64,000 nucleotides of DNA, from assembly GCA_000004985.1 (NCBI GenBank), contig GG738877.1. One strand, written 5' to 3'. Below are positions 2,887 through 56,084 of the stretch, piece by piece. Every line of letters begins with the position of its first letter. The stretch's first letter is position 1. The notes under the pieces were generated by a model. It made no database searches. It was not told the DNA's origin and saw nothing but the letters and a program-made list of their open reading frames with translations. Source of the stretch: Naegleria gruberi (taxonomy: Eukaryota). The position numbers and the translations under genes are program-made.

Positions 2887-4266
2887 ATGACATTAAATAT
2901 TTCACTCGTAGCTTCCTCGTCATCGTCGAATCCACTATATTCACACAAAATGACCAATTCTACAATGAATCATCATTCGGTTCTGATAACCTCCCCAAAA
3001 CACATTAAACCCTCACTAACTCACCAAACTTCATTCACTAACTCATCTCCCAAGCATTTGCACTCAAAATCAACAAATTGCTTGACCATTCCATCTTCAC
3101 CTTCTTCATTCAACCAACAAAGTCCTTCTAATAACAATGCTAACAAACCAACACTAGGTCTCTCACCCAGTAATGGAAGAAGAAGAAATAGTGGTCTCTT
3201 TTCAGAGAAAATTGAGGTTCCAATTCCATCGTTTAACATTTCACCTAGTCATGAAACAACACCAAATCATGCCCAAAAGCTTCGAACATTTTCATTTCAC
3301 TCCTCCACAACAACTTCCTCTCACCTCAATATACAGGAACCATCGTCCAGTACCAAACTTCCTTCACTAGCATCTCCAAAATCTCCCTCTACAACAAACC
3401 AATCCAATACCAAACATTCAGTGCTGAAGAGAAATAATTCAGCACATATTGTCCTTATGAGAGATCATTCTCCAGTTCAAGTGCCAAAAAGACAACAAGT
3501 TTTTGCCTCTCCTTCCCCTACTCCTTCTTCAACTTCCAATATTTCCCCAACCAATCAATACTCGAATCAACAATATATCACTAATAGTATTATGACAAAC
3601 AATACTACAAACAATGTACACAATCAATCCTTAATGCCCCAACAAGATCAATCATCATTTAGTATCAATAGAAAGGTACGATCTGCCTCTCATACTCCTT
3701 CAACAATGCCCCCTGTTATTATAACTAGTGAGTATAATAACGTTACGAGCACAATCTCAAAAGAATCTAAGGGAGTGTTAGGACCAATTGATCGTACCAA
3801 TATGAGAGTAACATTCAGGAAAAAGGCCGCTTCAAAAAAGGACCTCTTTCGTTCAGCAACCCCAAATCAGTCTCCAAAAAAGGAGAATGGATCTGTTTCT
3901 TTTGCTGACAAGTTTACCATTGCTGTAGAAACACAAAAACAAATTGAGGCTCTCACGGATTATGTAAAACTTGATAGTTACTCTTTTGGATTGCAGAACG
4001 AGGAATACAAATCAACGTCAAACTATGATCTCAAGTATGATGAGGAAATGTATAAGGCCTATGTTGATCAAAATCAAGATATGAAGACACTATTTGATGT
4101 ACATAATTTGGTGAGGGAGTATGTTTCTTCACGAGGTGTTTCATCAATTAAGAAAATTGCAATTAAGGATAGTAACAAACTTGTTCTAGATATCATAAGA
4201 CGATACAATCAGAAAACATTGAAAAAGAACAAATCAGAGCAAACTTTAAAATCTCTATTAAAGTAA
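2887..4266 (+). CDS. hypothetical S/T/N-rich low-complexity protein with a more structured C-terminal ~150 aa
   Basis: The first in-frame ATG is at 2887 (the ORF-track start 2881 is GTG). The reading frame stays open for 1.38 kb with no stops. TAA at 4264-4266. Confidence 0.5.
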   Translation: MTLNISLVASSSSSNPLYSHKMTNSTMNHHSVLITSPKHIKPSLTHQTSFTNSSPKHLHSKSTNCLTIPSSPSSFNQQSPSNNNANKPTLGLSPSNGRRRNSGLFSEKIEVPIPSFNISPSHETTPNHAQKLRTFSFHSSTTTSSHLNIQEPSSSTKLPSLASPKSPSTTNQSNTKHSVLKRNNSAHIVLMRDHSPVQVPKRQQVFASPSPTPSSTSNISPTNQYSNQQYITNSIMTNNTTNNVHNQSLMPQQDQSSFSINRKVRSASHTPSTMPPVIITSEYNNVTSTISKESKGVLGPIDRTNMRVTFRKKAASKKDLFRSATPNQSPKKENGSVSFADKFTIAVETQKQIEALTDYVKLDSYSFGLQNEEYKSTSNYDLKYDEEMYKAYVDQNQDMKTLFDVHNLVREYVSSRGVSSIKKIAIKDSNKLVLDIIRRYNQKTLKKNKSEQTLKSLLK

Positions 4267-4267
4267 A

Positions 4268-5911
4268 TTATTCTTTACTTGAGGTGAATTCCATTTTCTT
4301 CTTTTTGCTATCACGATAATCTTCAGCATTTAGAGAGCTACTTCCAGCGGCTGCCTTCATGAATCCTCTTTGTCCAATATGATCCAAATTTGATCTCTTT
4401 TTAGAATCTTTAAGAAACTTGGAGAAACCAAAAGGATCATCATCTGAAGGTTCTTCTCTAGCAGCTGGTGCTTTGGATGCTGAAACAGAAGATGCACCAT
4501 CCCTTTCAAATACCACAGGTCCTGCTTGTCTTCTTGATTTAGAGGACTCATCCTCAGTCTCGAACTTGTCTCTCATATTTACATTTTCATCCAATTCTTG
4601 GAACATTTTGATTCTGTCCATATTTGGATTATAGAGTTTGCCATTGTTTGATTCTCCGAATAATGCCTTATCATATACATTGTAGTCATCGTCATCAAAT
4701 GAATCTTTGAGTCCTGATGCACGATTGAGCAATCTGCTATCAATTTGAACCTCTCCTGAAGCGACACTCGATCTTTGTGGTTGGTTAAAGTTGACCTTTT
4801 CAGAGACGGATCTACCCTCCGTTAAACCTCCAGTTCTTCTGTCTTGATTTCTTACCCTAGCTCTGTCCTCTTTATCTTTAATGTCTTTGTGCATCTTTTT
4901 GGCACGATTTGCCAATTCTCTAGTTCTTTGTAATTCTCTTTCTTGTTCCATTTCGTTGAGTCTCATTTGCATTTCAGCTCTTTCCTTAATTTCCAATCTA
5001 GCATTATGTTCAGCCAAATATAATGAAGATGTAAAGTCACCAAATTTAGGATTAACTGTTGATTGTTGTAAATTTCTACCATCAGCAAGAATTCTTTTAT
5101 CCAATGGAATAATAAGACCTTTTCTGTTTGTGTAATTAGAAATACAAGGTGGAATGTCCCAATTATCCTGGTCAGTCTTTGTAAGATTTCTAGGTGGGGA
5201 ATGCATTACAGTTGGAGGAGGAGAAGGTGGCCCAGTTGGCATCTTTTTCATTCGGAATTTAGCTGGTTCTACTGGATCGGTAGGAGCCTCTTCAATTTGT
5301 ATATACTTGATATCATCATCAGTACCTCCTCTAGGTTTATATCTAAAGAATTGTCTCTTTTCTATTTGATTTTCTTTTGATGCAGCAACAGAACGACTAA
5401 CAGCATTTCCAATATGAGCAGCTGTAATTTTACCACCAACTCTTAGTTCGAGTGCTTTCTTAGTTTCGAGTAAATTATCCGAAGTTTCTTCAATTGTTGG
5501 TTTTGCCAATTCATCCTCTTCCACATCAGCGCCGATCATATCTGAAAATTTAGTAAATGTTAAAGCATCCTTTCTCTGTCCTTGAGTAATAATTTTATCA
5601 AAATTAACATTTCCATCCGCATCCACTTGAACAGAAACAACATTTCCTGATGCATTTTTGTATTCCGATTTTCTACCCATATTCATAGGGAATTGAGAAA
5701 CAAATATTTCTGGATAGGCTCCTCCATCAGCAAAATCATCCTCAGTTTGTGGTATCCAATTTGAGTGTTCTCTTTTTCCGTAGAGTGGAATTTTAACTTT
5801 ATCCTTTCCTCGTTTTTCCTTTTGTCTTTGATCGTCCTGATCCGATGATGAATTGTTGTTCAAACCTAATTCTTTATGTTTTGGTGGCGGAAGAACAGCA
5901 AAGAGAGACAT
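4268..5911 (-). CDS. SNW1: SNW/SKIP-domain splicing factor (SNW1/Prp45 homologue)
   Basis: Single exon of 547 aa with ATG at 5911. It shows SNW-domain hallmarks: the N-terminal LPPPKH motif, a central basic helical region RLNEMEQERELQRTRELANRAK, and a PTGPPSPPP proline tract. Its stop lies 1 nt from the stop of the convergent gene at 4266. Confidence 0.85.
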   Translation of the reverse strand: MSLFAVLPPPKHKELGLNNNSSSDQDDQRQKEKRGKDKVKIPLYGKREHSNWIPQTEDDFADGGAYPEIFVSQFPMNMGRKSEYKNASGNVVSVQVDADGNVNFDKIITQGQRKDALTFTKFSDMIGADVEEDELAKPTIEETSDNLLETKKALELRVGGKITAAHIGNAVSRSVAASKENQIEKRQFFRYKPRGGTDDDIKYIQIEEAPTDPVEPAKFRMKKMPTGPPSPPPTVMHSPPRNLTKTDQDNWDIPPCISNYTNRKGLIIPLDKRILADGRNLQQSTVNPKFGDFTSSLYLAEHNARLEIKERAEMQMRLNEMEQERELQRTRELANRAKKMHKDIKDKEDRARVRNQDRRTGGLTEGRSVSEKVNFNQPQRSSVASGEVQIDSRLLNRASGLKDSFDDDDYNVYDKALFGESNNGKLYNPNMDRIKMFQELDENVNMRDKFETEDESSKSRRQAGPVVFERDGASSVSASKAPAAREEPSDDDPFGFSKFLKDSKKRSNLDHIGQRGFMKAAAGSSSLNAEDYRDSKKKKMEFTSSKE

Positions 5912-5978
5912 TTTTTTTAAATTAAAGTTTGAAGGTGTTGCAATATTTCTCTTGTTCTTTTAAATATTATTAAAACAC

Positions 5979-6001
5979 ATTAGAATGAGCATCATTCTAA
6001 T
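5979..6001. promoter_or_regulatory. 10-bp inverted repeat with a 3-nt loop in the divergent promoter between SNW1 and the PEPCK-like gene
   Basis: The element reads attagaatga-gca-tcattctaat. Confidence 0.25.
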
Positions 6002-6351
6002 AAATAATACTCTCTTGGAGATATATCTGATTAATTTGTTTCATCATATTAACTTGGTTGATGATTGACTTGCTTGGAAAAATTTTATGCAAAAAATAAC
6101 GGAAAGGAAAATAAAGTTTTATTCAATTTCAAAATTATGCAACAATTGATTATTACACAATTAATATCATAAACAATTTCATCATCATTAAGTATCACTT
6201 TCAATGCAATTAATACTTTTATTGCAATTTACCTTCAGTGTGCCTCCGACAGGAATGAAGGCTAGAAGAAATGGTATTGTAAAAAAAAATATCAGCGAGG
6301 CTCGTCATCTTCTCTCACTCTACCGCTCCGCTTCAAGAAAATATTTATAAG

Positions 6352-7956
6352 ATGAAGACAAGAAATACCCAAAAACTTCTTCTCTCTGTTGTTGGTAACA
6401 ATGGAAAATGTTGTTATTCCACAACAAATAGTAATCTTTCATTGAATGCTCTTAGACAACATCTTTCGAACCAACAACAATCAATGGAAAAAGCTAAAGT
6501 CTCCTACAATGAAAAAGTTGTTAATAACGCTGTTAATTTATATGAAGATAGAAAAGGTGATGAAGCTAAACACAACTGGAGTCTTTCTAAAGGATTAATT
6601 TTCCCACAATATGATGCTTATCGTAACGCTGATAATGAAACTTTATTGAAAAAGTCTTTTGGACAAGTCGACAGTGAAAAACAATTCTTGAAAGTCAAGG
6701 AAATTGCCAGTACCGAGTATGATAAGTATGTTGCCCATGCCGACAAAACTACACCTCTTGTTACATATACTGCCAAGGATGAAAAGTTCCACAAGCGTTC
6801 ACAACGTGAAGTTGGCTGGTATTTGTCATATGCTCCAAACTCTTTCACTCAAGATGGTTGTTTTGGTTCTGCCAATCAAAACACTTGTCTTGTTAGAGTT
6901 GTTACTGATAATAGTGTTTCTGGCTTGTTTTTGAAGAATATGATCTTGCCAACTAGAAAATTGGATTCCTCTGTTTTCAAATATGATTCTCTCGTTCTTC
7001 ACACTCCAGGTTTCCAATTTGTTCCAACTCACGTTGTTCAAGAATTTGGTGGTCCACTTCCAAAAGATTTGGGTTTGACAAAGGAACAATTTGTTTTTGA
7101 AAATGATCAAACCAATTCATCAGTAGTCAGTGGTGTTTTTAATCAAAATGTATTGTTGGATAATCTGGCCTTCTTTGGTGCTAGAACCATTTTCACAAAG
7201 AGTGGAGGAGCTGCTATTGTTTTGCCATCTGATTCTTTCATCAATAGTGACAAGTCATCAACAACTTTAATTATTAATTCTAATAATATTACTCGTACAG
7301 CTTTGACTGCTAGTAATATTACATTATACGGAGCTCACTACAATGTTCTCTCTGAATTAGGATTGAGTAGAGGTGTTGGTGGTGTTTTGGTTGAAGTTGA
7401 CGTTAACTCTGAATTGGCCAAGTCTCTCAAGAAGGGTGATTTGGTTGAAGAATCTGCTGATGGAAAGACTGTCAAGATTTCCACCAAAGTTTCTTCTACT
7501 GTTTTACCAAATATTGCACACACTCCAAAGAATATTGTTTTTGTTGTTGAAGATGCCAACTTTATTGTTCCAGTCCTTGGTAAGGTGAAGAATGCTCAAC
7601 AATTCTTCCAATCTGGTTTGGTTTCTGTTGGTAAGGACGCTACTTTCAACAAGTCATTCACTACTTTCGGAGCTCAAAGAGCTTATGCTGATGCCAAACA
7701 AGTTGCTGAATCATTTGCTAAACTTAACAAGGCTGCTAATGTATACATTGTCAATGGATCGTATGATGCCACCAAGATTCAACAAGCTCTCTCTTTGATT
7801 TCATCCGGTGAAGCTGCCTCCCTCAAGGAAGATCTTTCAAACTCTCTCTTCTCCACTCTTTCTCACAAAAGTCTTGAAAATAAGGCTTGGAAGGATCAAT
7901 CCAAGTATGCTGCTGCTATTAAGCAACTCGAAGAAAACGTTTCCAAAAGTTTGTAA
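6352..7956 (+). CDS. PEPCK(ATP)-like protein, divergent and apparently lacking the catalytic P-loop
   Basis: ATG at 6352, 534 aa, single exon. Several blocks align from memory with ATP-dependent PEP carboxykinase: DGCFGSANQNTCLVRVVTDNS vs DAFCGANPDTRLSVRFITE, LFLKNMILP vs HFVKNMFIRP, and VYIVNGSYDA vs AYLVNTGWNG. The kinase-1a motif GLSGTGKTT, the IGDDEH motif and the FLSGFTAK motif are not recognisable. Confidence 0.55.
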   Translation: MKTRNTQKLLLSVVGNNGKCCYSTTNSNLSLNALRQHLSNQQQSMEKAKVSYNEKVVNNAVNLYEDRKGDEAKHNWSLSKGLIFPQYDAYRNADNETLLKKSFGQVDSEKQFLKVKEIASTEYDKYVAHADKTTPLVTYTAKDEKFHKRSQREVGWYLSYAPNSFTQDGCFGSANQNTCLVRVVTDNSVSGLFLKNMILPTRKLDSSVFKYDSLVLHTPGFQFVPTHVVQEFGGPLPKDLGLTKEQFVFENDQTNSSVVSGVFNQNVLLDNLAFFGARTIFTKSGGAAIVLPSDSFINSDKSSTTLIINSNNITRTALTASNITLYGAHYNVLSELGLSRGVGGVLVEVDVNSELAKSLKKGDLVEESADGKTVKISTKVSSTVLPNIAHTPKNIVFVVEDANFIVPVLGKVKNAQQFFQSGLVSVGKDATFNKSFTTFGAQRAYADAKQVAESFAKLNKAANVYIVNGSYDATKIQQALSLISSGEAASLKEDLSNSLFSTLSHKSLENKAWKDQSKYAAAIKQLEENVSKSL

Positions 7957-50961: not shown

Positions 50962-53451
50962 TTACCTTTCCTCTACTTTCCATTCCTCATAGTATTTCAG
51001 CTGGGATGGCTTTAGAGATGGAGAAATCATTTGAAGAGCCTTTTCAAAATCTTCCACCCTTATAGAGCCTTTTTCATCATTATTCGATAATATTGTTCTT
51101 GAGAGAGCATTCAAACCAGCTCTTTGACAAATATTTGAAATATCAGCACCTGAATAGAATTTTTCAGTATTTTCCACAAAATTTCCTATTCTTTCAATTA
51201 CATCACTATCCACTCTCATACCCTTAATGGACATTTCAAAAATAGACTTTCTAGCTTCTCTATCTGGAGGACCAACATAGAGTGTATGCTCAATTCTTCC
51301 AGTTCTTAGTACAGTTGGATCTAATTTATGTGGTACGTTTGTGGCTGCAATCACAATAACACAACCTTTCGATTGACTTGAATTATCATTTGAAAATTCT
51401 GCACTTTCCAAAGAGTCTAGCTCCAAAATTAGTTGAGAAATTAAACGTTGTTCTCCACTAGAGGAATCCATTCTGTCACCAAAAATGGCTTGAATTTCAT
51501 CAAAGAAAATGACACAAGGACTTGCCAATTTGGCTCTCCTAAAAACTTCTGCTAGGGTTTTCTCAGATTCACCAACTTCTGCTTTGATAAGATCTGGAAT
51601 ATTTATGGAAATGAAGTTAGAACTAGATGCCGTGGCAACAGCTTTTGCAATTCTGATGAAATAAGAATAATTCAAACAAAAATCAATAGTACTTACAAAG
51701 TCTTACCATTACCTGGTGGTCCATAGAGCAGCAGACCAGTAGGTGGCTTAATTCCCATTCTTATGTATGACTCGAAATGTTTTAGTGGCCAAACAATCAT
51801 CTCATTCAGTTTTTTCTTCACCTCATAAAGACCACCAATATCTTCCCAATTAACCTTTGGTATTTGAGGAATGGTGAGAGTTTGCGAAGCTTGTCTGATT
51901 GAATACGGTTCAATTTCTTTCAATTCCTCCATAATTTCAACTCTTTGTATTGACAATTTATCACCTCCACTCTTCAGACGATTAATATTGGCTCTATGTA
52001 CGCATTTAGCACAAACCATAGCAATGTCTGCTTGTACCATACCATGGAAATGGTTGTAGCTGATATCCTTCAAGCAACCATCTACGTCTCCATAAGTTTT
52101 TGAATCAGCTTCACTCATTTGAATGGTGATTGGTTTGGTATTAAGTAATAATGATTTAAATATTTCGAAACGTTCATCATTACTTGGAACATCAATGGTA
52201 ATATGCTCTTCAAACTTTTGTTTTACAAATGAATCTAATCTATCCGCATGACTTGTAATACCAATCAAACAAATAGGATATCGTGACATTTCCAAATTAT
52301 GGAACACTGAAACAAGTTGGTTAATTAACAATAAGTCTTTTGATTCTTCATCATCTGGAAACAGAATATCAATCTCATCAATTACAACTATTAATTATTT
52401 TAGGTTTTCAGTAGAAATATTATAGCACTTACACAAACATGGGTAGAGGCTTTCAGCTTCTTTCATTTGGGTTTCTAAATTGAAAACTCCTTCCTCCTCT
52501 TGATATATTTTCTCGTAGAGAGATGATGGAGAAAGTTTCTTAATATTAACATTCAAGTCTTTAGCAATATTGAAAATGAGTGAACTCTTTCCATTTCCTC
52601 CAGCTCCACTGATTAGAAAACTCCTAATTGGATTAATTCCAGCTAATCCACTAACTGAATGTTTAATGATGGAAAGTATGGTATTATACTGCTCTCCTTT
52701 CCAATAATTATTTTCTTTCAAACTCTCAGTATTCAGTTTATCAAAATCAAATATTATTCTCGTATTTTTAATTGAAATCCTTCCCCATTCATTGGATTCT
52801 GATTTATAATATTTAAAGAATATTTTAAAGTGGATGAAATCTGTTGTGTCAGGGTTGAAAACATCAATTGGTATAGAAATTATTGATGCATTCTTTACAA
52901 AACACATTTGTGTTAAAAATTCTTTGACGTCTGTCTTGTTAAATCCACAAATTCATAGAATACCTACAATTTTTGTTCAAATTGACAATTTTCTCAGATC
53001 CTCCTTCAAAATGAGGTGTCAAAATGATCCTCTGAATTTTATCAATTTCACTCTTTAATCCAATTTTAACAATTTCCAACTTGGTTCCTTCAGTAAATTT
53101 AAACTTCCTCATTGCAATTTCATTCATATATAATTCCTTGTCCACACTCTCGGATTTAAAATTCGATTTCAAAAGACCCAATGATGGATCAATATATAAC
53201 TTGAACACCAATTCTTCCTTTTCATCATCATGATTAATTTCTTTAATTTTAATAAATAATTGTTTGTGATGGTGCACATTTTGTGCTGGTGATTCAGATG
53301 ATGATTTGGAAAATATATTCAAAATTCTGGCAACAGCAGGAGAGATGATGACTGTGAAAATATCGGATACTTTGTGTTTTCCAACCAATTCTCTTTTTCG
53401 TTTTGTTAATTGAGAGGGATAGTATCGGAGTGAATAGCTTTCTTGTTGCAT
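50962..53451 (-). CDS. two-ring AAA+ ATPase of the Pex6/Pex1-like type; D1 is degenerate and D2 canonical; 4 exons, ~787 aa
   Basis: Exons are complement(52968..53451), complement(52433..52930), complement(51697..52387) and complement(50962..51652). Introns are 37 nt (GTAGGT..ACAG), 45 nt (GTAAGT..ATAG) and 44 nt (GTAAGT..ATCAG), and phases are consistent. ATG at 53451 (MQQESYSL). D1 Walker A is the degenerate ISGAGGNGKSSL, with Walker B VIDEIDILF. D2 Walker A GLLLYGPPGNGKT|LIAKAVATAS is split by an intron. D2 Walker B is VIFFDEIQAIF, with a sensor/Arg finger in ATNVPHKLDPTVLRTGRIEH. It is tail-to-tail with DcpS, 4 nt apart. Confidence 0.8.
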
Positions 53452-53592
53452 TTTTTTGATACAAACAAAAAGTGAATTATTCACTAAAACAATGAATTTG
53501 CTATATTCACTTTATTAAATTGAGAATATTTTGAAACAAATTATTGAAGAACAAAAATTGAACTTTGAAATCAAATAAATGATTGTAAAAAA

Positions 53593-54677
53593 ATGTCTTT
53601 ACTTGAATTACCAACCGAGTTGTTGATTCACATTATAAACTTTCTTCTTCCAATGCCATCTGCTAGTTTTCCCTATTTATTAATGAAAAATTCTATTAAA
53701 CAAATGGCAATATTGCAGTCAGTGAATTCAAAGATTCTTTCGGAACGAATTTCTGATTTCACAAATGAATTTTGGTGGAATTTGATAGAATGTGAATGTG
53801 GAATCCGATTGGATGTACAAAAAGAAAAACAATTACTAATCAATAACAAACAAATGAAGAGGAAATGTTTACTTTTTCTTAGGATTCGACAGTTGGCAAG
53901 ATTAAAAAAGAAAGCACAAGTTACCAAGGAATTGGATATTCACAACAGAAAACAAGATATTCTCATTCTTGTATTTGGAAATGGTTTGTAATCATATGTG
54001 TATTCATAAATTCTCAAAAAAACAAATAGATGGAGCAAGTGGACAATCAAATATGGTTGAAAATTATATTTACAATAATTTCCAAATGTCGTATGATCCC
54101 ACAGTGGAAGATACGTTCATAAAAATAGTGGAAATGGATAGTGTAAAGTATGTGTTAGAGATTGTTGATTTAGGTAGGTGGAATAAATTATTTCGATAAA
54201 CATCTGATTTATTAAGCAACTTCTGGATCTTTGAGGGACTTGCAGAATGCTCAGAATGAAATTCGATCAACAAATTCTTTCATTCTCCTTTCAAGCTTGA
54301 GTTTGGACATTCAGCAGTGTGATTCAGATTATAAAAAGTGGATGGAGCAGATCAAGTCAACCAAGCAAAACATATCTGCTTGTCCCTTAATAGTACTCAT
54401 TAAGAACGAGGCCAACGTTGAACAAAAAAGTACAATATCACAATGGGTTAATTTCTTTAGTCCACTTTTTCAATCTCTTTCAATGAATAATTATTGTTTC
54501 ATGGAAATGAAAACAAGAAAAGATGTTCCACTTGTGTTTTTAGAGTGTGCCAGAAGAGTTATCAATGCTCGGGATTTTGATTTGCCATCGGTCATACAAG
54601 AATTGAAAGATGTTATCAAGAATGATTCTCTACTTTTAAACCCATCTACCAATAAGTCACGATGTGTACTAAATTGA
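53593..54677 (+). CDS. F-box-like / Ras-like small GTPase-fold protein with degenerate nucleotide-binding motifs (putative pseudoGTPase); 3 exons, ~332 aa
   Basis: Exons are 53593..53986, 54030..54182 and 54226..54677, with two 43-nt introns (GTAATC..ATAG and GTAGGT..TAAG) in consistent phase 1. The N-terminus has an F-box-like LPTELLIHIINFLL. The Ras-like core reads ILILVFGNG|YGASGQSNMVENYIYNNFQMSYDPTVEDTFIKIVEMDSVKYVLEIVDL|ATSGSLRDLQNAQNEIRSTNSFILL...CPLIVLIKNEANV...FMEMKTRKDVPLVFLECARRVI. The G1 lysine is replaced by Gln. In G3, DxxG is replaced by DLAT. G4 NKxD reads KNEA. G5 SAK reads MKT. An alternative first donor at 53984 (GTTTGT, 47-nt intron) gives a less P-loop-like FGNDGASGQS. Confidence 0.6.
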
Positions 54678-54706
54678 AAATAGTATTCAAGGTAAAAAAC
54701 TAAAAT

Positions 54707-56084
54707 TTACTCATGTTTTGTCTTCTTTTGTCGTGGTGCCAAATCAACTTCATCATCTTCGGCAGGTATTGAGGCAATTTGTTCAGGAGTGAGTTCTTTA
54801 GATAAATCTTCATTGTCATTGAAATGGAGAGCCTTGTGTAAATCGTCGAAGCCTTTACATTTGGCAAGTCGTTCGTATAATTTGGTTTTGGCATGAGTTT
54901 CAAACATTCTCTTCAGAATATATTTGGAAAGCCCAGAGTGATAATTATACTTGATCAATTCGTCCAAAAGTTCTTTTGCAACAACCAATTTATCCAATAA
55001 AACTTTTTCCTTTCTGAAAATACTCAAATTCCACATAGCTCCTCTTGCTGTTCAATTAAGTGAAAATTTTTGAATTAATTATTTAAATGAAACGCAGACA
55101 CTTACCAATCATGACAGAGGAACACCCTGTTAAATCCTTAATTCGGTCAATATCTTCTGGTTTAAAAACATCACCATTGGCAATGATTGGAACTTTGGTA
55201 ATCTTTGAAACTGGATCTACTAAATGGGAATGGGCTTTTTCTCTTGGTCTTTGTGGAATATATCTGGCATGAACACAAATGGCTGTGACACCAGTAGCTT
55301 GTAATTTTTCGTATAATTCTATAGTATTTTCGGTTGTATCTAAGAGTCTGATTTTGCATGTCACAGGTTTTCCGTGCTTTTCTTGAATTCCCTTTACAAG
55401 AGCTCTCAAAATTGCAAATGCATTTTCTTGATTTTCTGGTCGTAACAATGCAGAACCCATTCCTCCTTTAACTGAAAATTTCTTTGGACATCCCATATTT
55501 ACATCAATAGCATCATAACCATCTATCATCAATTCAGCAACTTGTAAAGCAAGCTCTGGAGATGAAGTACCAAGTTGAAGGACTGTTGGCACTTTTTGTG
55601 ACGCAGTCGGAGAGTCACTTTCTTTATCTACAACTTCCACTTGATAAACAATATTTCCATCATGACCAATGTAATCTATGGTTTTCAATTTTTCATTATA
55701 TACAGGTTTACATTTAATAAGTTTCTTATCCACTAATTCCTCAGAGTAGACAATATCTGCACCAAAACGAGCAGCAAGTCTACGGAATGGAAGACCATTC
55801 ACTCTTACCATAGGTGCTAGAATTACTTTGTTTGTGTAATCGATAGGAATGACTGGTCTTTTCGGAATGTTACTATTTGTTGTGGTTGTTGCCTCTGTTG
55901 CAACAGATGATGCTTGTTGTTCCGATAACATGATGTTATTATTATTCAAAGTAGTGGTCACTGAAAACTTTCTTCCAACAGAATCAACAGAATGAAGATT
56001 AAAAGGAAGAGCAGCAAAACCCAACTTGTTATTGGTGGTGAGAATTTTTTTAGGGTGGAAGTGCTTGGAGAGGATGCTCTTCAT
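54707..56084 (-). CDS. tRNA-dihydrouridine synthase (Dus family); 2 exons, ~439 aa
   Basis: Exons are complement(55106..56084) and complement(54707..55047), with a 58-nt intron GTAAGT..AACAG. ATG at 56084. Dus motifs ILAPMVRVNGLPFRRL, IDVNMGCPKK and ICVHAR are present. The splice recreates the conserved ...SVMIG|ARGAMWNLSIF motif (compare GVMIGRGALWNPWIF). The ORF-track ORF 54707..55036 is therefore the terminal exon, not a separate gene. Confidence 0.85.

What the first reader, a model, noticed from the sequence alone, without database searches (positions are those of the whole stretch)
53593..54677. Ras-like protein with every GTPase motif degenerate, fused to an N-terminal F-box
After splicing, the protein has a clear Ras/Rab-like fold order (P-loop, switch I with YDPTVEDTF, then G3, G4 and G5 positions). 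The P-loop reads GNGYGASGQS, so the invariant Lys is Gln. DTAGQE is replaced by DLATSG, NKxD by KNEA and SAK by MKT. That pattern suggests a non-hydrolysing or non-binding pseudoGTPase. The N-terminal roughly 130 aa carries an F-box-like LPTELLIHIINFLL. An F-box plus dead-GTPase scaffold could act as an SCF substrate adaptor. I do not recognise this as a described family.
Basis: partly seen in the sequence, partly recalled or inferred. Interest (0 to 1): 0.6.

Follow-up and report, generated by a model that had tools for sequence, protein, structure and literature searches.

The report
Dead Ras-like protein with F-box-like head
This is a real, spliced Naegleria gruberi gene for a Ras-fold protein that has almost certainly lost nucleotide binding and carries an F-box-like N-terminal domain; it is an extreme member of a large amoeba-specific Ras family that was already catalogued, so it is a modest rather than a new-family finding.

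Summary
The window is Naegleria gruberi NEG-M DNA. At 53593-54677 (+) there is a three-exon gene (GT-AG introns of 46 and 43 nt) encoding a 331-aa protein. It has an N-terminal helical domain that starts with LPTELLIHIINFLL, then a Ras-family G domain (Pfam Ras, 47 bits), a helical C-extension and a CaaX-like end, CVLN.

G1, G3, G4 and G5 are degenerate: GNDGASGQS (K16Q plus a one-residue insertion), DLATSG, NEAN, and SAK lost. Switch I (YDPTVEDTF) is intact.

The protein is not an orphan. It belongs to a Heterolobosea-specific Ras paralogue family with the same architecture, most of whose members keep GKS and NKxD. F-box homology of the N-terminus holds at family level but not for this protein alone.

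A second strain keeps the reading frame and the splice sites, with dN/dS 0.15, so the gene is under purifying selection.

Herman et al. 2021 already list this gene, N-terminally truncated, as a Ras. [quoted passage not shown]

Best reading: a nucleotide-independent, probably membrane-anchored, SCF-adaptor-like pseudoGTPase. Skp1 binding and loss of nucleotide binding are inferred, not shown.

The parts
53593..53983 (+). Exon 1 (residues 1-130 plus the first base of codon 131): N-terminal helical domain, strand beta1, and the start of the P-loop
   Evidence: ORF starts at ATG 53593. It is homologous over its full length to the N-termini of paralogues. It is conserved in a second strain, which has an in-frame +1 codon.
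53599..53649 (+). F-box helix-1 motif LLELPTELLIHIINFLL (residues 3-19)
   Evidence: hhalign of the family profile against canonical F-boxes: probability 90%, P=1.5e-6 over these columns; the reversed control gives 0.1%. L6, P7 and I14 are nearly invariant in the family.
53593..53946 (+). Whole N-terminal six-helix domain (residues 1-118): divergent F-box plus helical linker. It includes the family-conserved LQSxN (S43), FWW (W61) and KR (R90) positions.
53984..54029 (+). Intron 1, 46 nt, GTTTGT...ATAG, phase 1, inside the P-loop codon for D131
   Evidence: It is the only in-frame GT-AG combination. It is identical in the second strain.
54030..54173 (+). Exon 2: rest of the P-loop, helix alpha1, switch I, strands beta2-beta3, and the start of G3
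   Evidence: The Ras HMM alignment runs continuously across both exon junctions.
53977..54049 (+). Degenerate G1/P-loop GNDGASGQS (residues 129-137, interrupted by intron 1): K16 replaced by Q, plus a one-residue insertion; S17 kept
   Evidence: Alignment to HRas and 21 paralogues. Coordinates.
54092..54118 (+). Intact switch I / effector loop YDPTVEDTF (residues 152-160; T35 equivalent kept)
54174..54216 (+). Intron 2, 43 nt, GTAGGT...TAAG, phase 1
   Evidence: The second strain has GTAAGT here. Herman et al. used the same junction in their manual model. A Naegleria-like paralogue has a phase-1 intron one codon away.
54167..54227 (+). Degenerate G3 DLATSG (residues 177-182, interrupted by intron 2): G60 replaced by T, Q61 by S
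54217..54677 (+). Exon 3, including the TGA stop codon
54405..54416 (+). Degenerate G4 NEAN (residues 242-245) in place of NKxD
54504..54518 (+). G5 region EMKTR (residues 275-279): the Ser-Ala of SAK is missing
54573..54641 (+). Family-conserved helical C-terminal extension (residues 298-320, DFDLPSVIQELKDVIKNDSLLLN)
   Evidence: Alignment A1. Helices 279-298 and 301-319 in the model.
54663..54674 (+). CaaX-like C-terminus CVLN (probable prenylation signal, with an atypical X residue)
   Evidence: Paralogues end in CLLQ, CSIM, CLLM, CMVM and similar. CVLN is identical in the second strain.

Best explanation
The locus is an expressed-type, selectively maintained Naegleria gruberi gene. It encodes a 331-aa member of a Heterolobosea-specific family built as: F-box-derived N-terminal helical domain, Ras G domain, helical extension, CaaX.

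In most paralogues the G domain keeps GxxxxGK[ST] and NKxD, so they should bind GTP. Many have Q61P or a degenerate DxxG, so they are probably poor hydrolysers. In this paralogue the P-loop Lys, G60/Q61, K117/D119 and the SA of SAK are all gone and the P-loop carries an insertion. It most likely cannot bind guanine nucleotide at all, which makes it a class-I-type pseudoGTPase. The Ras fold and a near-canonical switch I effector loop are preserved.

Proposed mechanism (inferred):
- The C-terminal Cys is prenylated and anchors the protein to a membrane.
- The F-box-like head docks on Skp1-Cul1.
- The locked Ras-fold domain acts as a constitutive, nucleotide-independent binding module for a Ras-effector-like partner.
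- That partner is then ubiquitinated, or sequestered away from the GTP-gated paralogues.

Shown: the gene structure, the Ras fold, the motif losses, family membership, purifying selection and family-level F-box homology. Inferred: loss of nucleotide binding, prenylation, Skp1 binding and any substrate.
For: Gene model and organism.

Ras homology and fold: Pfam Ras 47 bits; PDB Rap/Ras hits at about 1e-10; AlphaFold pLDDT 81.7 with Foldseek TM about 0.8 to Rap1b and KRas.

Motif states. Of 22 family members compared, only this gene and XP_002671156 lack both GK[ST] and NKxD.

Family with the same architecture in N. gruberi, N. lovaniensis and Willaertia magna.

F-box evidence:
- 13/22 N-termini hit F-box-like, 5/22 hit F-box and 2/22 hit F-box-like_2, while no unrelated Pfam family is hit by more than one member.
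- Willaertia P0073 scores 22.3 bits on Pfam F-box, above the 20.5 gathering score, across profile positions 2-42 of 43.
- hhalign gives 90% probability against 0.1% for the reversed control.
- In profile searches against PDB sequences, F-box proteins (FBXL5, FBXO42, AnkB; also MAX2) make up most of the weak hits, and FBXL5 is the best hit with the larger profile.

Selection: a second strain keeps the ORF, the splice sites, all degenerate motifs and CVLN. There are 11 synonymous and 7 non-synonymous changes, dN/dS 0.15, binomial P=1.5e-4.

Precedent for GTPase-cullin adaptor fusions: Herman et al. 2021 supplement; RhoBTB (PMC4931677) and Rab40-CRL5 (PMC8129794), both found.
Against: - The protein itself gives no Pfam F-box hit at E<=1.
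- In Naegleria members only helix 1 matches confidently, and about 15-20 residues are inserted between helices 1 and 2.
- There is no transcript evidence. The 331-aa product is not in the 15-billion-protein collection, and the spliced junctions were not found in JGI metagenome contigs.
- X = Asn is an unusual CaaX ending, and the polybasic stretch of the paralogues is reduced to NKSR.
- Selection was estimated from only 18 substitutions.
- No orthologue was found outside N. gruberi, so long-term conservation of the dead motifs cannot be shown.
- Nucleotide binding, Skp1 binding and substrates were not tested.
Confidence: 0.5

Rival explanations
1. The N-terminal domain descends from an F-box but no longer links to an SCF ligase. 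It is a family-specific helical module that packs on the G domain or binds some other partner. On this view the protein acts as a membrane-bound decoy. Its intact switch I titrates effectors or regulators of the GTP-binding paralogues, as a built-in dominant-negative or scaffold, and no ubiquitination is involved.
For: - Only helix 1 of the F-box is confidently recognisable in Naegleria members, and there is a long insertion before helix 2.
- The protein itself has no F-box hit.
- The structural matches are weak.
- The full-length model has pTM 0.76, which is compatible with the two domains packing together.
- Switch I is conserved while all the nucleotide-contacting motifs are lost.
Against: - The LPxE(I/L)(I/L)xxI(L/F)xFL motif, the part of an F-box that contacts Skp1 (my own knowledge), is the best-conserved feature of the whole family: P7, L6 and I14 are conserved in at least 90% of members.
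- A Willaertia member retains a complete F-box above Pfam's threshold.
Confidence: 0.25
2. The gene is a decaying copy in a birth-and-death family. It lost GTPase function recently and is drifting towards pseudogene status, so the degenerate motifs carry no function.
For: - Herman et al. describe birth-and-death dynamics and disrupted copies in Naegleria GTPase expansions, and several Ras paralogues are flagged as pseudogenes in their Table S8.
- No orthologue was found in N. fowleri, N. lovaniensis or Willaertia.
- The gene is not in the official N. gruberi gene set.
- There is no transcript evidence.
Against: - The ORF and both GT-AG introns are intact in two strains, and the only indel is in frame.
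- dN/dS is 0.15 overall and 0.11 in the G domain, significantly below neutral expectation (P=1.5e-4).
- The fold is predicted confidently, with core pLDDT about 90.
- Switch I, the family-invariant N-terminal residues and the CaaX cysteine are all retained.
- Herman et al. did not flag this gene as a pseudogene.
Confidence: 0.15
3. The protein still binds a nucleotide in a non-canonical way and remains a regulated switch. Possibilities include a different base, because D119 is now N, or phosphate binding through S17 and D57.
For: - G10, G15, S17, T35, D57 and N116 equivalents are retained.
- In Ras-like GTPases, D119N is known to shift specificity towards xanthine nucleotides (my own knowledge).
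Against: The following changes occur together: loss of the P-loop Lys, a one-residue insertion in the P-loop, G60T, K117E, and deletion of the Ser-Ala of G5. In known pseudoGTPase domains such as those of p190RhoGAP (PMC5593906), comparable combinations go with no nucleotide binding.
Confidence: 0.1

Closest known systems
Heterolobosean Ras paralogues with an N-terminal extension (for example N. gruberi XP_002674532, XP_002668509, XP_002675968; N. lovaniensis XP_044545843; Willaertia magna KAL9647619), listed as plain 'Ras' in Herman et al. 2021, Table S8
   Same: - Same architecture from end to end: the LPxEIIxxILxFLL head, the LQSxN and FWW motifs, a KR-rich linker helix, the Ras G domain, the helical C-extension and CaaX.
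- 25-33% identity over the full length.
- The window gene itself is in that table as ACER01000338.1**.
   Different: - Nearly all paralogues keep GxxxxGK[ST] and NKxD. This one has GNDGASGQS and NEAN and also lacks DxxG and SAK.
- The published model lacks exon 1.
- No F-box was recorded for any Ras row of the table.
Naegleria F-box-GTPase fusions (Rab-like clades RabX13 and others, plus Rho, Ran and G-alpha), Herman et al. 2021, Supplementary Material 4
   Same: - An N-terminal F-box followed by a Ras-superfamily G domain.
- One Rab-like clade also ends in CaaX.
- Lineage-specific expansion with birth-and-death dynamics.
- The authors proposed GTPase-dependent ubiquitination.
   Different: Those G domains are Rab-, Rho-, Ran- or G-alpha-type. 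This one is Ras/Rap-type, with YDPTxED in switch I and best PDB hits to Rap and Ras. Its nucleotide motifs are dead.
RhoBTB proteins (atypical Rho GTPase + BTB domains; Cul3 adaptors; PMC4931677)
   Same: A small-GTPase-fold domain with atypical or defective nucleotide handling, fused to a cullin-adaptor domain. This is the same logic of 'G domain as part of an E3 substrate receptor'.
   Different: - The adaptor domain is BTB (Cul3) at the C-terminus, rather than an F-box-like domain (Cul1) at the N-terminus.
- The G domain is Rho-type rather than Ras-type.
- RhoBTB is not prenylated (my own knowledge).
Rab40 (Rab + SOCS box; CRL5 adaptor; PMC8129794, PMC10509765)
   Same: A prenylated small GTPase carrying a cullin-adaptor box that recruits substrates for localised ubiquitination.
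   Different: - The adaptor is a SOCS box binding Elongin B/C-Cul5, placed C-terminal to the G domain.
- Rab40 is a working GTP-binding Rab.
TbFRP of Euglenozoa (FYVE + F-box + Ras-like GTPase; PMC3593210)
   Same: An F-box placed N-terminal to a Ras-like G domain, in another excavate lineage.
   Different: - TbFRP has a FYVE domain for membrane targeting instead of CaaX.
- Its G domain is Rab18/Ypt6-like.
- The authors found no N. gruberi orthologue.
Class I pseudoGTPases (p190RhoGAP pG1/pG2, PMC5593906; AAGAB, PMC12490416)
   Same: The Ras-like fold is retained, the G motifs are lost, and the domain serves as a nucleotide-free protein-interaction module.
   Different: These are unrelated lineages and architectures. 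None of them is fused to an F-box or carries a CaaX signal.

Membership tests
Ras family (Pfam PF00071; small GTPase superfamily) | Sequence match to the family profile above the curated threshold | tested here: met
   47 bits against a gathering score of 21.6, covering residues 127-293 and profile positions 4-160 of 162. Best PDB relatives are Rap2A, Di-Ras2 and Rap1b.
Ras family (Pfam PF00071; small GTPase superfamily) | G-domain fold (six-stranded sheet with five helices) | tested here: met
   AlphaFold model with pLDDT 81.7. Foldseek matches Rap1b and KRas with TM (target) about 0.8 and E about 1e-9. This is a prediction, not an experimental structure.
Ras family (Pfam PF00071; small GTPase superfamily) | G1 P-loop GxxxxGK[S/T] | tested here: not met
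   The sequence is GNDGASGQS: Lys is replaced by Gln and there is a one-residue insertion.
Ras family (Pfam PF00071; small GTPase superfamily) | G2 switch I threonine and the Ras-type effector loop YDPTIEDSY | tested here: met
   The sequence is YDPTVEDTF, with T35 kept.
Ras family (Pfam PF00071; small GTPase superfamily) | G3 DxxG(Q) | tested here: not met
   The sequence is DLATSG: G60 replaced by T, Q61 by S.
Ras family (Pfam PF00071; small GTPase superfamily) | G4 NKxD and G5 SAK (guanine recognition) | tested here: not met
   G4 is NEAN, and the G5 region reads EM--KT.
Ras family (Pfam PF00071; small GTPase superfamily) | Guanine-nucleotide binding and hydrolysis | not testable with these tools
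   Requires purified protein and mant-nucleotide, ITC or thermal-shift assays.
F-box proteins (Pfam F-box clan; SCF substrate receptors) | Sequence match of this protein to an F-box profile | tested here: not met
   No F-box, F-box-like or F-box-like_2 hit at E<=10 for the full protein, nor at E<=1 for residues 1-118.
F-box proteins (Pfam F-box clan; SCF substrate receptors) | Homology of the family's N-terminal domain to the F-box | tested here: met
   - 13/22 members hit F-box-like, 5/22 hit F-box and 2/22 hit F-box-like_2; unrelated Pfam families are hit by one member each.
- P0073 scores 22.3 bits on F-box, above the 20.5 gathering score, over profile positions 2-42 of 43.
- hhalign probability is 90% against 0.1% for the reversed control.
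F-box proteins (Pfam F-box clan; SCF substrate receptors) | Three-helix F-box fold | tested here: inconclusive
   - The N-terminal model has pLDDT 88.
- Foldseek finds nothing with E<1.
F-box proteins (Pfam F-box clan; SCF substrate receptors) | Binding to Skp1 and assembly with Cul1 | not testable with these tools
   No multimer prediction or experiment was available.
CaaX-prenylated proteins | Cys at position -4 followed by two aliphatic residues and a permissive X | tested here: inconclusive
   The C-terminus is CVLN. The Cys and the aliphatic V and L are present and are conserved in the second strain. X = N is atypical compared with the M, Q, L, V and C endings of the paralogues.
Class I pseudoGTPase (nucleotide-free G-fold domain) | G fold retained, G motifs lost, no nucleotide binding | tested here: inconclusive
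   Retention of the fold and loss of the motifs are shown. Absence of nucleotide binding is only inferred.

The most novel reading that the evidence does not exclude
Heterolobosean amoebae possess a whole family of membrane-anchored SCF substrate receptors in which a Ras-fold domain takes the place of the WD40 or LRR substrate-binding module. Substrate capture would be gated by GTP in most members. The window gene would be a naturally 'locked', nucleotide-free version that recognises a Ras-effector-like target constitutively. This would be a Cul1 counterpart of RhoBTB (Cul3) and Rab40 (Cul5), and a natural experiment in turning a switch into a fixed adaptor.
Probability: 0.3. Interest if true: 0.6.

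Novelty: new variant of a known kind. Interest (0 to 1): 0.4.

Why it matters
If the model holds, Naegleria and its relatives couple Ras-type switches directly to Cul1 ubiquitin ligases at membranes. This gene would then show what happens when such a switch is frozen: the effector face is kept and the nucleotide pocket is discarded. That would add a third, independent case of a small GTPase fused to a cullin adaptor, beside RhoBTB-Cul3 and Rab40-Cul5. It would also provide a compact natural pseudoGTPase for studying nucleotide-independent effector recognition.

There are practical results too. The N. gruberi gene model is corrected: exon 1 is added to the published partial model. The F-box annotation is extended to the Ras-clade expansion (80 Ras family genes in N. 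gruberi according to Herman et al.), where it had not been recorded.

The finding is not a new protein family, and the general idea of GTPase-dependent ubiquitination in Naegleria has already been published.

Tried and rejected
1. Other donor/acceptor pairs around both introns were checked by hand, and none is in frame.
2. Word-indexed protein searches found almost nothing: no hit with the protein itself, 3 hits with the N-terminal profile, and mostly ordinary Ras proteins with the full-length family profile. The exhaustive HMMER search was needed to find the family.
3. Exact look-up of the 331-aa product and of the exon ORFs found none of them in the protein collection.
5. Foldseek of the N-terminal model against the PDB gave no meaningful match.
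6. Spliced-junction searches for both junctions in JGI metagenome contigs gave 0 hits, so there is no transcript evidence.
7. Intron-position conservation was tried as a check on the gene model. The Willaertia paralogues have three introns at different positions. One Naegleria-like paralogue has a phase-1 intron one codon away from intron 2. This gives only weak support.
8. No other copy of the family lies in the window (tblastn).
9. Orthology to TbFRP is rejected. There is no FYVE domain, the G domain here is Ras/Rap-type whereas TbFRP's is Rab18/Ypt6-like, and the TbFRP authors found no Naegleria orthologue.
Full report
**Organism and context.** Flanking ORFs of the window are identical to Naegleria gruberi NEG-M proteins XP_002675625, XP_002675541 and XP_002675543, which lie on a 394.7-kb scaffold. 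The window is about 33% G+C and gene-dense, as expected for this amoeboflagellate.

**Gene model.** Three ORF pieces lie on the + strand: 53593-53991, 53969-54199 and 54231-54677. They join into one reading frame through two GT-AG introns, giving exons 53593-53983, 54030-54173 and 54217-54677.
- Intron 1 is 46 nt (GTTTGT...ATAG) and intron 2 is 43 nt (GTAGGT...TAAG). The product is 331 aa.
That position reads TG. I checked the other GT and AG positions near both junctions by reading the sequence, and none keeps the frame.
- Independent support for the model comes from four observations. The Ras profile aligns without a break across both junctions. Exon 1 is homologous to the N-termini of paralogues. 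A second strain keeps both introns, with intron 2 improved to GTAAGT. Herman et al. used the same second junction in their manual model.
- No transcript evidence could be obtained. The product is not in the protein collection, and neither spliced junction occurs in JGI metagenome contigs.

**The G domain.** Residues 127-293 score 47 bits on Pfam Ras (gathering score 21.6) and 27.7 bits on Roc. The closest solved relatives are Rap2A, Di-Ras2, Rap1b and H/K/N-Ras, at E about 1e-10 to 1e-7. An AlphaFold model built with an 18-sequence family alignment has mean pLDDT 81.7 and pTM 0.76. It superposes on Rap1b and KRas with TM about 0.8, normalised to the target.

Aligned to HRas and to 21 family members, the motifs read as follows.

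| Motif | Sequence here | Change relative to HRas |
|---|---|---|
| G1 | G-N-D-G-A-S-G-Q-S | K16Q and a one-residue insertion; G10, G15 and S17 kept |
| G2 / switch I | YDPTVEDTF | essentially intact; T35 kept |
| G3 | DLATSG | D57 kept; G60T, Q61S |
| G4 | NEAN | N116 kept; K117E, D119N |
| G5 | EM--KT | the Ser-Ala of SAK is missing |

The G4 register was off by one, and 'every motif' is too strong, because switch I is intact. From established knowledge of Ras biochemistry, K16, G60, K117/D119 and A146 contact the phosphates and the guanine base. Losing all of them together predicts no guanine-nucleotide binding. This is an inference, not a measurement.

**It is not an orphan.** An exhaustive HMMER search of 1.84 billion representative proteins gave 426 hits at E<=0.001. 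After three exon fragments from a near-identical strain, the best hits align over the whole length, N-terminus included, at 25-33% identity. They come from N. gruberi (annotated 'ras family small GTPase'), N. lovaniensis and Willaertia magna. All share the same build:
- an LPxE(I/L)(I/L)xxI(L/F)xFL head;
- a conserved LQSxN stretch;
- an FN(E)FWW motif;
- a basic KR-rich linker helix;
- a Ras G domain;
- a helical C-extension (xxLLKxVIxxD);
- a polybasic stretch followed by CaaX (CLLQ, CSIM, CLLM, CMVM and so on).

The window protein retains the nearly invariant N-terminal residues L6, P7, I14, S43, W61 and R90, and it ends in CVLN.

In a table of 22 members, all but two keep GxxxxGK[ST] and [N/T/M]KxD. 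The exceptions are this gene and XP_002671156. G3 is degenerate in about eight members. Q61 is Pro in many (DTAGPE), which suggests that weak hydrolysis is common in the family. The window gene is thus the extreme end of a trend, not a separate invention.

**Is the N-terminus an F-box?**

For this protein alone the test fails. There is no hit to any Pfam F-box-type model (F-box, F-box-like, F-box-like_2) at E<=10 for the full protein, or at E<=1 for residues 1-118.

At family level the signal is consistent.
- Of 22 N-terminal regions, 13 hit F-box-like (best E=6e-4), 5 hit F-box (best 1.2e-4) and 2 hit F-box-like_2. One each hits Elongin_A and PRANC, which are F-box relatives (my own knowledge). 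Every unrelated family is hit by a single member only.
- The Willaertia member P0073 scores 22.3 bits on Pfam F-box, above the 20.5-bit gathering score, across profile positions 2-42 of 43. It lacks the 15-20-residue insertion that Naegleria members carry between helices 1 and 2.
- In Naegleria members only helix 1 matches confidently.
- A profile-profile comparison of the family N-terminus with eight canonical F-boxes gives 90% probability (P=1.5e-6), against 0.1% for the reversed alignment.
- Profile searches against PDB sequences give only weak hits (no E-value below 0.1). Most of them are F-box proteins: FBXL5, FBXO42 and Legionella AnkB in both searches, plus MAX2 in the first. FBXL5 is the best hit with the larger profile.

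I conclude that the domain is F-box-derived (confidence about 0.75). Whether it still binds Skp1 is untested.

**Is the gene functional?** A metagenome contig (ENA ERZ929261; locus L002) carries the same locus from a strain about 98% identical.
- The ORF is intact, and the one indel is an in-frame extra codon.
- Both introns keep GT-AG.
- All the degenerate motifs and CVLN are identical.
- The exons differ by 11 synonymous and 7 non-synonymous changes. dN/dS is 0.15 overall and 0.11 in the G domain. Seven of 18 changes being non-synonymous, against a neutral expectation of 0.80, has binomial P=1.5e-4.
- The sample is small, but it argues against a drifting pseudogene.

No orthologue above about 33% identity exists in other species in the database. 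Herman et al. assign the gene to no N. fowleri orthologue. Deep conservation of the dead motifs therefore cannot be shown.

**What was already known.** Herman et al. 2021 (BMC Biol 19:142, PMC8296547) re-annotated Ras-superfamily genes of N. gruberi and N. fowleri.
- Their Table S8 lists this very gene as a newly created Ras model on ACER01000338.1. The sequence runs from GQSNMVENY... to ...SRCVLN: it starts after the first intron and lacks exon 1. It carries no pseudogene flag and no extra domain.
- The paralogues found here are listed as plain 'Ras', and no Ras row carries 'F-box'.
[quoted passage not shown] It describes three Naegleria-specific Rab-like clades with an N-terminal F-box extension, one of them with CaaX. 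It notes birth-and-death evolution and suggests 'GTPase-dependent ubiquitination'.
- TbFRP of trypanosomes is a further F-box-GTPase fusion, and no Naegleria orthologue of it was found.

New here, then, are the complete gene model, the extension of the F-box-type head to the Ras clade and to Willaertia, and the recognition of a nucleotide-dead but selectively maintained member.

**Mechanism.** The best-supported picture is this. A probably prenylated C-terminus places the protein on a membrane. An F-box-derived head may dock on Skp1-Cul1. A Ras-fold domain that can no longer read nucleotide state, but keeps the effector loop, acts as a constitutive binding surface. It would either deliver a partner to the ligase or compete with the GTP-gated paralogues. 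The logic parallels RhoBTB-Cul3 (PMC4931677) and Rab40-Cul5 (PMC8129794), and the G domain resembles class I pseudoGTPases (PMC5593906, PMC12490416).

The rivals are:
- a non-SCF scaffold or decoy (confidence 0.25);
- a decaying copy (0.15);
- non-canonical nucleotide binding (0.1).

**Verdict.** The claim of an undescribed family is not. Interest is moderate (0.4): a new variant within a known kind of Naegleria F-box-GTPase fusion and within the pseudoGTPase class.

Noticed in passing
L001 and L002 (ENA ERZ929261, PRJEB11402 metagenome contigs); window 4268-5911 and 53193-55077: A public 'metagenome' assembly contains contigs of a Naegleria gruberi-like strain. One contig encodes a SKIP/SNW protein identical to the window's, and another is about 98% identical across the target locus. 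These contigs give strain-level polymorphism data for this scaffold.
   Followed up: partly
L003 1-9216 (Willaertia magna JBEGDK010000117.1): Two tandem F-box-Ras-CaaX paralogues (4001-5216 and 6459-7681) are interleaved with two RCC1/RLD-repeat genes (1-831 and 5409-6338, minus strand) and are followed by an LRR gene. RCC1-like proteins are GEF-like, so the arrangement might be functional or might just be a local duplication.
   Followed up: no
Family alignment; not in the window: Many family members have Pro at the Q61 position (DTAGPE), and about eight of 22 lack DxxG altogether while keeping GKS and NKxD. This suggests that much of the family binds GTP but hydrolyses it poorly. XP_002671156 is a second member that has lost both the P-loop and NKxD.
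   Followed up: partly
L003 and L004 compared with window 53984-54029 and 54174-54216: Intron positions are not conserved in the family. The Willaertia paralogues have three introns at other sites. A Naegleria-like paralogue (L004) has a phase-1 intron in the G60 codon, one codon from the window's intron 2, and no P-loop intron. The metagenome-derived protein P0123 appears to contain an unspliced in-frame intron inside its P-loop (GMSRYSLEIQLLNWKVGSGKS).
   Followed up: partly
window 53593-54677: The official N. gruberi protein set appears to have no model for this gene. The exact product and the exon ORFs are absent from the protein collection, and the only published model (Herman et al., Table S8) lacks exon 1.
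   Followed up: yes
window 54707-55036 (-) and 55083-56084 (-): The downstream neighbours are a 109-aa ORF and a tRNA-dihydrouridine-synthase-like ORF. They are far more conserved between the two strains (1 substitution in 400 nt) than the target gene or its 5' flank (about 2-3%).
   Followed up: no
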